This document shows, piece by piece, positions 39,286-42,200 of a stretch of DNA of 64,000 nt. The position numbers are program-made. The stretch lies in assembly GCF_057098645.1 (NCBI RefSeq), contig NZ_CM169472.1. One strand, 5' to 3'. Numbering within the stretch: the first letter of the stretch is position 1; each line of letters starts with the position of its first letter.

Positions 39286-42200
39286 TGACACTTTTCGGTT
39301 TACTGTGGTAGAGTAACCGTGAAGACAAAATTTCTCTGAGATGTTCGCAAGCGGGCCAGTCCCCTGAGCCGATATTTCATACCACAAGAATGTGGCGCTC
39401 CGCGGTTGGTGAGCATGCTCGGTCCGTCCGAGAAGCCTTAAAACTGCGACGACACATTCACCTTGAACCAAGGGTTCAAGGGTTACAGCCTGCGGCGGCA
39501 TCTCGGAGATTCCCTTCTTATCTGGCACCAGCCATGACGCATCTACCAGAACTCCCACTGATATTATCCCGACAAGAAATCCGCAAAATGATTCGGCAAC
39601 GTCGTCGTGCGTTAACGCCGGAACAACAGCAGGAAATGGGTCAACAAGCCGCTACCCGGATGATGACTTATCCCCCGGTGGTGATGGCACATACGGTCGC
39701 TGTATTCCTCTCTTTTGATGGCGAACTCGACACCCAGCCACTCATAGAACAACTCTGGCGCGCCGGTAAGCGCGTATATCTTCCAGTTTTGCATCCCTTT
39801 AGTGCCGGTAATTTGCTGTTCCTGAATTACCATCCGCAAAGTGAACTGGTGATGAACAGGTTGAAGATCCATGAGCCAAAACTGGATGTGCGTGACGTGC
39901 TACCCCTTTCCCGATTAGACGTGTTGATCACACCGCTGGTCGCCTTTGATGAGTACGGTCAGCGCCTGGGAATGGGCGGAGGTTTTTATGATCGGACCTT
40001 ACAAAACTGGCAGCACTATAAAATGCAACCGGTGGGTTATGCGCATGATTGTCAGTTGGTGGAAAAACTCCCCGTTGAAGAGTGGGATATCCCTCTTCCT
40101 GCGGTGGTTACACCGTCGAAAATCTGGGAGTGGTGAGGGCGACACACCTGCATCGCCCTGATTGACATCGTTGATTCTTTAACCTAATTTAGTGAGTAAG
40201 GGTAAGGGAGGATTGCTCCTCCCCTGTGACTGACTGTTAATAAGCGCTGAAACTTATGAGTAACAGTACAATCAGTATGATGACAAGTCGCATCATAACC
40301 CTTCTCCTTCAAGCCCTCGCTTCGGTGAGGGCTTTACCGTTACAGCCCCATGCTGCCCTGCTATCGTAAACTCTCTTTAAATAAGCACAACGCATTGATC
40401 TACCTTTAAATTTTTTCTTCGAGCGCACTCGTAAAACGTCATGTAAGACAGACACACATTGCAGGGATAAGGGATGAATTACGGCAGTAAACGTGGGCGA
40501 TGAAGTGTCTATCAAATGATCGGTTCAGGGCGATACATCCCGCATCGCCCTGATTGACATCGTTGATTCTTTGACCTAATTTAGTGAGTAAGGGTAAGGG
40601 AGGATGACTCCTCCCCTGAGACTGACTGTTAATAAGCTGGGAAACTTATGAGTAACAGTACAATCAGTATGATGACAAGTCGCATCATAACCCTTCTCCT
40701 TCAAGCCCTCGCTTCGGTGAGGGCTTTACCGTTACAGCCCTGTGCTGTCCTGCCATCGTAAATCCCCATTAAATAAACACAACGCATTGATCTGACTGTG
40801 ATTTATTTTCTGGAGCAGACTCGCAAAGTAGAATGCGCAACGCGGCAACGGTGTGGAGAAGGGATAAAAAAACGGGCAAGTCAGTGACCTGCCCGTTGAT
40901 TTTCAGAGAAGGGGAATTAGTACAGCAGACGGGCGCGAATGGTACCCGGAATAGCTTTCATTGCCTGCAGCGCTTTTTCGGCAACGTCTTCGTCGGCTTC
41001 AATATCAATAACCACATAACCCATCTGGGCGGAAGTTTGTAGATATTGCGCGGCGATGTTGACGCCCTGCTCGGCGAAGATTTTGTTCAGCGCAGTTAGC
41101 ACGCCCGGACGGTTTTCGTGGATGTGCATCAGACGACGCCCACCGTGCAGTGGCAGCGAGACTTCCGGGAAGTTCACCGCAGAGAGCGTTGAGCCATTGT
41201 CAGAATACTTGATCAATTTACCCGCAACTTCCAGGCCGATATTCTCCTGCGCTTCCTGAGTCGAACCGCCAATGTGTGGCGTCAGAAGGACATTGTCGAA
41301 TTCACACAGCGGAGAGGTAAATGGATCGCTATTGGTCGCTGGTTCCGTCGGGAATACGTCGATTGCCGCCCCCGCCAGATGTTTGCTCGCCAGCGCATCA
41401 CACAGCGCCGGAATATCCACCACAGTACCGCGCGAGGCATTAATCAGCAGCGAGCCGGGCTTCATTAGTGAAATCTCTTTCGCACCCATCATATTTTTGG
41501 TGGACGGATTCTCTGGTACATGCAGACTCACCACATCGCTCATATTCAGCAGGTCAGAAAGATGCTGTACCTGAGTGGCGTTGCCCAGCGGCAGTTTATT
41601 TTCAATATCATAAAAGTAAACATACATTCCCAGCGATTCAGCCAGAATGCCCAATTGCGTACCAATATGACCGTAGCCGATGATACCCAGCTTTTTGCCG
41701 CGCGCTTCAAAAGACCCCGCCGCCAGTTTGTTCCACACGCCACGGTGCGCTTTAGCATTGGCTTCCGGCACGCCGCGCAATAGCAGCAGCAGTTCGCCAA
41801 TCACCAGCTCCGCAACAGAGCGCGTATTTGAGAACGGTGCGTTAAATACCGGGATCCCGCGCTTTGCCGCCGCATCCAGATCAACCTGGTTTGTTCCGAT
41901 ACAGAAACAGCCAATAGCGACCAGCTTTTCTGCGGCGTTGATCACGTCTTCAGTCAGATGGGTACGGGATCGCAGGCCGATGAAGTGGGCATCGCGGATG
42001 GATTCTTTTAATTGTTCATCATCCAGCGCGCCTTTGTGAAATTCGATGTTGGTGTAACCAGCTGCACGAAGGCTTTCCAGCGCCTTTTGGTGCACGCCTT
42101 CTACCAGCAGAAACTTAATCTTGTCTTTCTCCAGCGATACCTTTGCCATTTACCCAATCCTGTCTTTTGAAATGTTGTGTGCGGATTTGCGTCCGCCTTT

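What the first reader, a model, noticed from the sequence alone, without database searches (positions are those of the whole stretch)
40146..40916. Sib/Ibs type I toxin-antitoxin unit present as two diverged tandem copies between fau and serA
An about 393-bp unit is repeated head-to-tail (catcgccctgattgacatcg... at about 40150 and again at about 40540). Each copy carries a 19-codon Ibs toxin ORF on the minus strand with its own ribosome-binding site. As I recall K-12, a single copy (sibC/ibsC) sits here and the tandem pairs are at other loci. The copies are not identical, so this is an old duplication or a recombination between Sib loci, not an assembly artefact.
Basis: partly seen in the sequence, partly recalled or inferred. 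Interest (0 to 1): 0.55.

Follow-up and report, generated by a model that had tools for sequence, protein, structure and literature searches.

The report
Two tandem sibC/ibsC toxin-antitoxin units
The spacer between fau and serA holds two intact, slightly different copies of the well-known SibC/IbsC small-RNA/toxic-peptide module where K-12 has one, but a third of sequenced E. coli share this arrangement and it is already annotated, so it is ordinary.

Summary
Window 40137-40528 and 40529-40920 are two head-to-tail units with a period of 392 nt. Each has a Sib RNA scoring 135-138 bits against Rfam RF00113 and an intact 19-codon ibs ORF on the minus strand.

The arrangement is not unusual. The inter-unit junction is present in 1,857 of 5,426 complete E. 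coli genomes (34%). RefSeq annotates two ibs genes at this site in the near-identical O145 strain RM9872, in an O157:H7 strain and in strain EC19. Published tables already give EDL933 six Ibs genes against K-12's five.

Both units belong to the sibC lineage (96-99% identical to K-12 sibC, 60-76% to sibA/B/D/E). Recombination with another Sib locus is therefore rejected.

The duplication is old. A homologous junction occurs in O157-type and EC19-type E. coli and in a separate Escherichia lineage.

The two Sib RNAs differ at six positions: +17, +18, +30 and +49-51. The last three are the TRD1 triplet that was mutated experimentally to switch specificity. TRD2 is identical, so I predict the two units cross-repress each other. 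The window's allele pairing (IbsC ...SAY plus ...PAY) is the rare one, found in about 55 genomes. Verdict: already known, low interest.

The parts
39330..39513 (+). ssrS (6S RNA), upstream neighbour; context only
   Evidence: Rfam RF00013, 139.8 bits; annotated ssrS in the near-identical RM9872 record
39534..40136 (+). fau (5-formyltetrahydrofolate cyclo-ligase), left flank; stop codon TGA at 40134-40136
   Evidence: RefSeq annotation of the matching region of RM9872, which is identical over 39534-40136; ORF list
40137..40528 (+). Unit 1 (392 nt): head, Sib promoter, Sib-1/ibs-1, ibs promoter and diverged tail
   Evidence: Direct repeat, spacing 392; alignment of the two units
40162..40190 (+). 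Inferred Sib-1 promoter: -35 TTGACA 40162-40167, 17-nt spacer, -10 TAATTT 40185-40190
   Evidence: Direct reading, placed relative to the K-12 sibC 5' end. The consensus scan reported no promoter here because the -10 is weak, so this is an inference.
40198..40338 (+). Sib-1 antitoxin RNA, 141 nt; differs from K-12 SibC at one base (+30 A>T)
   Evidence: Positional alignment to annotated K-12 sibC; Rfam hit; fold -53.9 kcal/mol, z -5.8, with the published helix pattern
40237..40296 (-). ibs-1 toxin ORF, 19 codons plus stop: MMRLVIILIVLLLISFSAY, identical to K-12 IbsC
   Evidence: Translation; same sequence as K-12 IbsC; RefSeq WP_010723220.1 is annotated at this position in both K-12 and RM9872
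40198..40356 (-). Inferred ibs-1 mRNA (~159 nt), starting 18 nt beyond the Sib-1 3' end
   Evidence: Inference from Han et al. 2010 (PMC2943612): ibsC mRNA is 159 nt with an 18-nt 5' overhang in the full duplex. The G50/G51/G53 to C110/C109/C107 pairing they report fits these coordinates.
40363..40390 (-). Inferred ibs-1 promoter on the minus strand: -35 TTGTGC (40390-40385), -10 TACGAT (40368-40363)
   Evidence: Direct reading, positioned from the inferred start site; lies inside the conserved core. Inference.
40406..40528 (.). Tail 1, the inter-unit spacer. Found only in two-unit genomes and highly variable between haplotypes.
   Evidence: No relative at the other K-12 Sib loci or in outgroup spacers. 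Identity to the window: 99.2% in RM9872, 92.7% in O157, 82.3% in strain EC19. A junction query spanning it (40400-40545) matches 1,857 of 5,426 genomes.
40529..40920 (+). Unit 2 (392 nt): head, Sib promoter, Sib-2/ibs-2, ibs promoter and the serA-proximal tail
   Evidence: Its tail is identical to the K-12 serA-proximal spacer over the aligned stretch.
40554..40582 (+). Inferred Sib-2 promoter: -35 TTGACA 40554-40559, -10 TAATTT 40577-40582
   Evidence: Direct reading; differs from the unit-1 stretch at one base, in the spacer between the hexamers. Inference.
40590..40730 (+). Sib-2 antitoxin RNA, 141 nt; differs from Sib-1 at +17, +18, +30 and +49-51 only
   Evidence: fold -55.3 kcal/mol, z -4.9, same architecture as Sib-1
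40629..40688 (-). ibs-2 toxin ORF, 19 codons plus stop: MMRLVIILIVLLLISFPAY (Ser17 to Pro relative to IbsC)
   Evidence: Translation; annotated as ibsC, WP_071525914.1, in RM9872
40590..40748 (-). Inferred ibs-2 mRNA; promoter -10 TACGAT (40760-40755) and -35 TTGTGT (40782-40777) lie just upstream on the minus strand
   Evidence: Inferred by register with unit 1 (+392) and from Han et al. 2010
40871..40897 (-). Terminator-like hairpin plus T run downstream of serA; outside the conserved repeat core
   Evidence: Terminator scan
40917..42149 (-). serA (phosphoglycerate dehydrogenase), right flank
   Evidence: ORF list; RefSeq annotation of RM9872

Best explanation
The fau-serA spacer carries two complete, apparently functional type I toxin-antitoxin modules of the sibC/ibsC lineage, arranged head to tail.

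In each module a roughly 159-nt ibs mRNA on the minus strand encodes a 19-residue hydrophobic membrane-depolarising peptide. A 141-nt Sib RNA from the plus strand is fully complementary to it. By the published mechanism, Sib captures the mRNA through two independent recognition domains: TRD1 (a loop, +46 to +68, targeting the ORF) and TRD2 (single-stranded, +99 to +115, targeting the ribosome-binding site). Pairing blocks translation and leads to mRNA decay.

The doublet is an old, polymorphic tandem array of the Escherichia lineage, not an event of this strain. About a third of E. coli genomes have it. K-12 and the rest have one unit, and rare strains have none. Array haplotypes have been reshuffled by recombination or gene conversion. 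As a result, this O145:H28-type strain pairs an 'S' unit (identical in peptide to K-12 IbsC) with a 'P' unit, which carries the commonest allele in the species.

In this pair TRD1 has diverged by three adjacent loop bases and TRD2 is identical. I therefore infer that each Sib can still repress both ibs mRNAs, so the two units are redundant rather than insulated.

Shown here: the sequences, their family and lineage membership, the intact parts, and the population and outgroup distribution. Inferred: transcription of both units, toxicity of the Pro17 peptide, cross-repression, and the order of evolutionary events.
For: Family and intactness:
- Two Rfam SIB_RNA hits at 134.6 and 137.6 bits.
- Two intact 19-codon ORFs.
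- Both RNAs fold into the same P1/P2/P5/P6/J1-7/terminator pattern, with z-scores of -5.8 and -4.9.
- The promoter hexamers for Sib and ibs lie inside the conserved ~270-nt core.

Lineage: the units are 99.3% and 96.5% identical to K-12 sibC, and 60-76% to sibA/B/D/E.

Population:
- The junction is in 1,857 of 5,426 genomes, in three identity bands of 55, 309 and 1,493 genomes.
- K-12 has a single unit.
- RefSeq annotates two ibs genes in RM9872, an O157:H7 strain and strain EC19.
- TRD1 allele counts are S 2,164, P 2,789, G 1,843 and P-L 346 genomes.
- The P allele must also occur as a sole copy in a large number of genomes: 2,789 genomes carry it, which exceeds the 1,857 two-unit genomes. 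It is therefore not a decaying allele.

Age:
- A homologous tail 1 is present in O157, EC19 and the separate Escherichia lineage L008, whose flanks are 93-94.5% identical to the window.
- Tail 1 keeps bases shared with the outgroups that the K-12-type tail 2 has lost.

Mechanism (PMC2943612):
- TRD1 and TRD2 act independently, and either one suffices.
- Changing G49CU51 to UGC retargets TRD1.
- In the window the copies differ at +49-51 and have no TRD2 differences, with 90 nt of perfect cross-complementarity from +52 to +141.
- The cross-pair TRD1 duplex is -26.5 kcal/mol against -37.5 for the cognate pair. The cross-pair TRD2 duplex is -27.6, the same as cognate.
Against: There are no expression data for either unit in this strain.

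The consensus promoter scan found no sigma-70 match, so the promoter calls rest on my reading and on register with K-12.

Toxicity of the Pro17 peptide is untested. A review reports that the C-terminal residues of IbsC matter for toxicity (PMC8309996). However, K-12 IbsB also ends FPAY.

Cross-repression is extrapolated from SibC/SibD chimeras, not measured for these alleles.

Most outgroups carry one unit at this site. An alternative history therefore remains possible: a single unit was ancestral in E. coli and the two-unit haplotype spread by recombination.
Confidence: 0.88

Rival explanations
1. The second unit arrived by ectopic recombination or gene conversion from another Sib locus (sibA/B at yegL-mdtA or sibD/E at yqiK-hldE).
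For: The Sib loci share enough sequence to recombine in principle. The TRD1 triplet changes are multi-base, as conversion tracts would be.
Against: Both units are 96-99% identical to K-12 sibC and only 60-76% to sibA, B, D and E over the 141-nt RNA. Tail 1 has no match at the K-12 sibA/B or sibD/E loci. None of the TRD1 alleles at this locus equals the sibA/B/D/E sequence at the same place.
Confidence: 0.02
2. It is a recent duplication specific to this strain or its O145 lineage.
For: The exact S+P allele pairing, with a junction at least 99% identical, is confined to about 55 genomes. Most outgroup species have one unit here.
Against: The same junction tail is found at 93% identity in O157, 82% in strain EC19 and 82% in a separate Escherichia lineage. 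The two tails of the window's own units are almost unalignable over their last ~100 nt, which a recent duplication could not produce.
Confidence: 0.03
3. One of the two units is a decaying, non-functional relic: a pseudo-toxin or a silent Sib.
For: Redundant toxin-antitoxin copies can decay. Ser17 to Pro lies in the C-terminal part of IbsC reported as needed for toxicity. One strain lost both units cleanly and is evidently viable.
Against: Both units keep the ORF, Shine-Dalgarno sequence, promoter hexamers, Sib terminator and fold, and their Rfam scores are equal. The P allele is the commonest in E. coli (2,789 genomes). K-12 IbsB also ends FPAY.
Confidence: 0.07
4. It is an assembly artefact, such as a mis-expanded repeat.
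For: None beyond the general risk with tandem repeats.
Against: The copies differ at many positions and have different tails. The arrangement recurs in 1,857 complete genomes from many laboratories.
Confidence: 0.005

Closest known systems
sibC/ibsC of E. coli K-12 (b4446/b4665), the single unit at fau-serA
   Same: Same locus, same flanks and same lineage. Unit 1 differs from K-12 SibC at one base (+30) and encodes the identical IbsC peptide. Over the aligned stretch, unit 2's serA-proximal tail is identical to the K-12 spacer.
   Different: The window has a second unit plus a 123-nt inter-unit spacer that K-12 lacks. Unit 2 carries TRD1 UGG instead of GCU at +49-51, GA instead of UG in the P2 loop, and Pro17 in the peptide.
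Two-unit fau-serA arrays of O157:H7 and of strain EC19 (the commonest junction class), annotated in RefSeq as 'Ibs family toxin' plus ibsC
   Same: Same position, same ~392-nt period, homologous junction spacer, and both units of the sibC lineage.
   Different: The allele content differs. O157 pairs P-L (..ISLPAY) with G (..FGAY), and EC19 pairs P (with V5A) with G. The window pairs S with P. In O157 and EC19 the second unit also has a TRD2 change (C113U) that the window pair lacks.
Tandem pairs sibA/ibsA-sibB/ibsB and sibD/ibsD-sibE/ibsE of K-12
   Same: The same kind of arrangement: two Sib/Ibs modules head to tail in one intergenic region at a spacing of about 335-375 nt.
   Different: Those pairs are far more diverged from each other (sibA/B 74%, sibD/E 90%, against 95.7% here). 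They are reported to be largely non-cross-reacting, with ibsA the exception (PMC2943612). The window pair shares an identical TRD2.
zorO-orzO / zorP-orzP and ldr-rdl tandem type I loci
   Same: These are type I toxin-antitoxin modules that are tandemly duplicated in some strains and single or absent in others, K-12 included (PMC2887945; PMC3919570).
   Different: They are unrelated sequence families with different antitoxin geometry. The antitoxin is divergent or overlaps the 5' UTR, rather than fully overlapping the ORF.

Membership tests
Sib/Ibs type I toxin-antitoxin family (Rfam RF00113 SIB_RNA) | A ~140-nt RNA matching the SIB_RNA covariance model above its gathering score | tested here: met
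   Two hits, at 134.6 and 137.6 bits against a gathering score of 56, each covering the full model 1-147
Sib/Ibs type I toxin-antitoxin family (Rfam RF00113 SIB_RNA) | An 18-19-codon hydrophobic ORF on the opposite strand, entirely inside the Sib-complementary stretch, with its own Shine-Dalgarno sequence | tested here: met
   ORFs at 40237-40296 and 40629-40688 lie within Sib 40198-40338 and 40590-40730. AAGGAG lies 8 nt upstream of each ATG (direct reading).
Sib/Ibs type I toxin-antitoxin family (Rfam RF00113 SIB_RNA) | The published Sib secondary structure: P1 closing stem, P2/P5/P6 hairpins, single-stranded J1/7 and a terminator hairpin | tested here: met
   Both RNAs give the same minimum-energy fold with these elements (z -5.8 and -4.9). 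The variable bases fall in the P2 and P5 loops. This is a prediction, not probing.
Sib/Ibs type I toxin-antitoxin family (Rfam RF00113 SIB_RNA) | The peptide is toxic when overproduced, and the cognate Sib RNA relieves the toxicity | not testable with these tools
   Known for K-12 IbsC/SibC (PMC2943612, PMC8309996). Unit 1 encodes the identical peptide. Unit 2's FPAY variant is untested.
sibC/ibsC lineage (as opposed to sibA, B, D or E) | Closest in sequence to K-12 sibC, and located between fau and serA | tested here: met
   99.3% and 96.5% identity to sibC against at most 76% to the others; flanks annotated as fau and serA
Insulated (non-cross-reacting) tandem Sib pair, as described for K-12 paralogues | Both TRD1 and TRD2 differ between the two units, so neither Sib recognises the other's mRNA | tested here: not met
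   TRD1 differs at +49-51, but TRD2 (+99 to +115) is identical, with 90 nt of uninterrupted cross-complementarity. By Han et al. 2010 either TRD suffices. This is a sequence test only.

The most novel reading that the evidence does not exclude
The +49-52 loop bases of TRD1, which also set codon 17 of the toxin, may be a specificity hotspot under diversifying selection at this locus. Four alleles (S, P, G, P-L) account for about 98% of all units, and two-unit arrays almost never carry the same allele twice. On this reading the window's S+P array is a natural intermediate in the birth of an orthogonal toxin-antitoxin pair, with TRD1 already split and TRD2 still shared. It would let one test directly how a duplicated antisense module becomes insulated.
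Probability: 0.15. Interest if true: 0.4.

Novelty: already known. Interest (0 to 1): 0.15.

Why it matters
It matters little as a discovery. The module, its mechanism, its tendency to sit in tandem and its variable copy number between strains are all published, and this doublet is already annotated in RefSeq.

Its modest value is as a reminder that K-12 is the minority-rich reference here: a third of E. coli genomes carry two units at this site. The O145-type allele pair, with TRD1 diverged and TRD2 identical, would also be a convenient natural substrate for testing the two-domain recognition model of Han et al. 2010.

Tried and rejected
- Tandem Repeats Finder on 39000-42000 found only an unrelated 8-nt repeat. 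The pair was found by the seed-and-extend repeat search instead.
- The consensus promoter scan found no sigma-70 site in 40100-40950. The promoter positions are therefore my reading in register with K-12 and are marked as inference.
- My first ORF translations were one base out of register and were corrected.
- Early on, K-12's single unit looked like a chimera of copy 1 (left) and copy 2 (right), which suggested a deletion by unequal crossover. I rejected this as diagnostic. Any single unit must share its fau-side head with copy 1 and its serA-side tail with copy 2, whichever state came first. The internal pattern is also a mosaic rather than a single crossover.
- A search for relatives of the inter-unit spacer at the K-12 sibA/B and sibD/E loci and in 68 outgroup loci found nothing outside two-unit Escherichia.
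- Three papers are not in the held library: Fozo et al. 2008 (PMC2597788, PMID 18710431), Fozo 2012 (doi 10.4161/rna.22568) and Mok et al. 2010 (PMC3009890). I could therefore not quote any statement about copy number at this specific locus, or about tolerance of Ser17 substitutions.
- The 19-residue peptides are too short for the protein-family and cluster tools, so peptide-level family membership rests on the RefSeq product names.
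Full report
**1. The observation**

The region contains a direct repeat of 289 nt (40147-40435 and 40539-40827) at 90% ungapped identity and a spacing of 392 nt. When the two 392-nt units (40137-40528 and 40529-40920) are aligned, they are nearly identical for about 270 nt and then diverge sharply over the last ~120 nt. Tandem Repeats Finder missed the pair.

Rfam's SIB_RNA model (RF00113) matches both units on the plus strand over its full length, at 134.6 and 137.6 bits against a gathering score of 56. On the minus strand, 40237-40296 translates to MMRLVIILIVLLLISFSAY* and 40629-40688 to MMRLVIILIVLLLISFPAY*. 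Each ORF has AAGGAG 8 nt upstream of its ATG (direct reading).

**2. Anatomy**

Register with the annotated K-12 sibC puts the Sib RNAs at 40198-40338 and 40590-40730, 141 nt each. Upstream of each I read a -35 TTGACA, a 17-nt spacer and a -10 TAATTT. The consensus scanner did not call these because the -10 is weak, so they are inferences.

Han et al. 2010 (PMC2943612) mapped the ibsC mRNA as about 159 nt, starting 18 nt beyond the SibC 3' end. That places the ibs 5' ends near 40356 and 40748, with TACGAT and TTGTGC/TTGTGT hexamers just upstream on the minus strand. All of these elements fall inside the conserved core, and the diverged tails have no assigned function.

Both RNAs are predicted to fold into the published architecture: a closing stem, three hairpins, a single-stranded stretch and a terminator. 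The z-scores are -5.8 and -4.9.

The flanks are fau (39534-40136) and serA (40917-42149), with 6S RNA further upstream. The window is essentially identical to E. coli O145 strain RM9872, with one mismatch between 39534 and 41700.

**3. The K-12 comparison**

MG1655 and a Keio-collection derivative carry one sibC/ibsC unit between fau and serA. The tandem pairs sibA/B and sibD/E lie between yegL and mdtA and between yqiK and hldE.

**4. Which Sib lineage**

Over the 141-nt RNA the window's units are 99.3% and 96.5% identical to K-12 sibC, and only 60-76% to sibA, B, D or E. The inter-unit spacer has no match at the other K-12 Sib loci. Both units are sibC paralogues.

**5. How common it is**

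A 146-nt query across the inter-unit junction matches 1,857 of 5,426 complete E. coli genomes (34%). The matches fall into three identity bands: at least 99% (55 genomes, including strain 88-3493), 90-95% (309, with O157:H7 strains among those listed) and 80-90% (1,493). The last band includes strain EC19, which I used as its representative and assumed to be phylogroup B1 without testing that.

RefSeq already annotates two ibs genes at this site in RM9872, an O157:H7 strain and EC19. Fozo et al. 2010 list six Ibs genes for EDL933 and seven each for S. boydii, S. sonnei and E. fergusonii (PMC2887945, Table 1). K-12 has five. A B2 strain is reported with four (PMC7232551). Copy-number variation of this family is therefore published, and this doublet is annotated.

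**6. Alleles**

Among sibC-lineage units the variation is concentrated at +49-52, with further sites at +17/18, +30, +61 and +113. I used 30-nt queries in which every megablast seed must span +49-52. The counts were:
- S (GCGCTG; peptide ..FSAY): 2,164 genomes
- P (GCTGGG; ..FPAY): 2,789 genomes
- G (GCTCCG; ..FGAY): 1,843 genomes
- P-L (GCTGGC; ..LPAY): 346 genomes

Together these make 7,146 places, about 98% of the roughly 7,280 units I expect. G is nearly confined to the second unit of two-unit genomes.

The window pairs S (unit 1) with P (unit 2). EC19 pairs P with G, and O157 pairs P-L with G. The window's pairing is thus the rare one, at about 55 genomes (1%). Its unit 2 is closer to O157's unit 1 (98.6%) than to O157's unit 2 (96.5%). 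This indicates that cores have been shuffled between positions by conversion or recombination.

**7. Age and direction**

Most outgroups have one unit at this site: E. albertii, two cryptic Escherichia lineages, several Citrobacter, Kluyvera and Pseudocitrobacter vendiensis. E. whittamii and S. enterica subsp. arizonae have none.

However, locus L008 carries two units with a homologous junction spacer (82% identity). L008 is labelled E. coli, but its flanking genes are only 93-94.5% identical to the window.

Inside E. coli, tail 1 is 82% identical between the window and EC19, while fau, serA, both cores and tail 2 are 96-99% identical. Tail 1 also keeps bases shared with the outgroups that the K-12-type tail 2 has lost.

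Together these results show one old duplication, at least as old as the E. coli radiation. I cannot tell whether single-unit E. coli are ancestral or collapsed arrays. My early 'K-12 is a chimera' argument is not diagnostic, because any single unit must share its head with copy 1 and its tail with copy 2.

**8. Mechanism and what the differences mean**

In the published model, SibC recognises ibsC mRNA through two independent domains. TRD1 (+46 to +68, the P5 loop) targets the ORF, and TRD2 (+99 to +115) targets the translation initiation region. Either domain suffices. Changing G49CU51 to UGC retargets TRD1 to ibsD, and repression of ibsC is lost only when both domains are changed.

The window's two Sib RNAs differ at +17/18 (P2 loop), +30 and +49-51, the same triplet that was mutated experimentally. 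They have no difference in TRD2.

The computed duplex energies are:
- TRD1, cognate pair: -37.5 kcal/mol
- TRD1, cross pair: -26.5 kcal/mol
- TRD1, the non-cross-reacting SibC/ibsD pair, for comparison: -27.7 kcal/mol
- TRD2, cross pair: -27.6 kcal/mol, the same as cognate

Cross-complementarity is perfect from +52 to +141.

I therefore infer that each Sib represses both ibs mRNAs through TRD2, so the units are redundant rather than insulated. In O157 and EC19 the second unit also has C113U in TRD2, which takes those pairs one step further towards insulation. This is inference from sequence and from published chimeras; nothing was measured for these alleles.

**9. Is either unit decaying?**

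Both units keep every recognisable part. The P allele is the commonest in the species: 2,789 genomes carry it, which exceeds the 1,857 two-unit genomes, so it must also occur as a sole copy in a large number of genomes. K-12 IbsB also ends FPAY. A review notes that the C-terminal residues of IbsC matter for toxicity, so Pro17 should still be tested. One O157-labelled genome (TR01) has cleanly lost both units, which shows the locus is dispensable.

**10. Verdict**

The feature is an already known and already annotated polymorphism of a well-studied type I toxin-antitoxin family.

The only mildly new points are descriptive: the 34% frequency, the four TRD1 alleles, the heterotypic arrays, the deeply diverged junction spacer and the half-split S+P pair. 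Interest is low.

Noticed in passing
L078 (NZ_CP033605.1, E. coli O157:H7 strain TR01), fau-serA spacer: This genome has no Sib/ibs unit at all. A clean deletion runs from the Sib -35 of unit 1 to just past the Sib terminator of unit 2, leaving a 207-nt spacer that still holds the unit-2 ibs promoter region.
   Followed up: partly
L079 (NZ_CP027457.1, strain 88-3493), inter-unit spacer: It has the same S+P array as the window, but with a 34-nt local duplication in the spacer just before unit 2. The unit spacing is 426 nt instead of 392.
   Followed up: partly
window 40406-40528 versus L003, L007 and L008: The inter-unit spacer is 82% identical between the window and strain EC19, while the flanking genes and cores are 96-99% identical. 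That is as diverged as against a separate Escherichia lineage. Ancient haplotypes, introgression or relaxed constraint could explain it; this was not resolved.
   Followed up: partly
L012 (E. albertii), L018 (Citrobacter sp. MGH106), L015-L017 (Pseudocitrobacter): The unit phylogeny disagrees with the species phylogeny at fau-serA. The E. albertii unit is 76% identical to E. coli sibC but 81% to the Pseudocitrobacter units. The Citrobacter sp. MGH106 unit is 89-90% identical to E. coli sibC. This fits differential loss from an old multi-unit array, or transfer.
   Followed up: no
L016 (Pseudocitrobacter faecalis) 3659-3798 and 4002-4142: This species also has two Sib/ibs units downstream of fau, but they are only 66% identical to each other. 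Its relative P. vendiensis has one.
   Followed up: partly
L011 (E. whittamii) 3600-6600: There is no Sib unit, and serA is not the gene downstream of fau. Other ORFs of 395, 217 and 252 aa on the opposite strand lie there, so the locus is rearranged or carries an insertion.
   Followed up: no
H25 (NZ_CP122454.1, strain 82.0311), fau-serA region: An IS200C-family tnpA is annotated under the match. In this strain the fau-serA region spans about 1.5 kb and holds a single ibsC.
   Followed up: no
E. coli genome collection: One plasmid record carries a match to the fau-sibC-serA region and to the S-type TRD1 allele. A chromosomal Sib unit on a plasmid is unexpected. It may be an integrated or misassigned segment.
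   Followed up: no
L002, L003, L007 (RefSeq/PGAP records) versus L006 (MG1655): The PGAP-annotated genomes list the ibs CDSs but no sib ncRNA gene. Only the curated MG1655 record annotates the sib RNAs. The fau start codon also differs: 603 nt in the PGAP records and 549 nt in MG1655.
   Followed up: no
window 39471-39490 versus 40328-40347 and 40720-40739: The 3' end of 6S RNA shows a 20-nt similarity (75%) to the stretch just 3' of each Sib terminator (..GTTACAGCC). This is probably chance.
   Followed up: no
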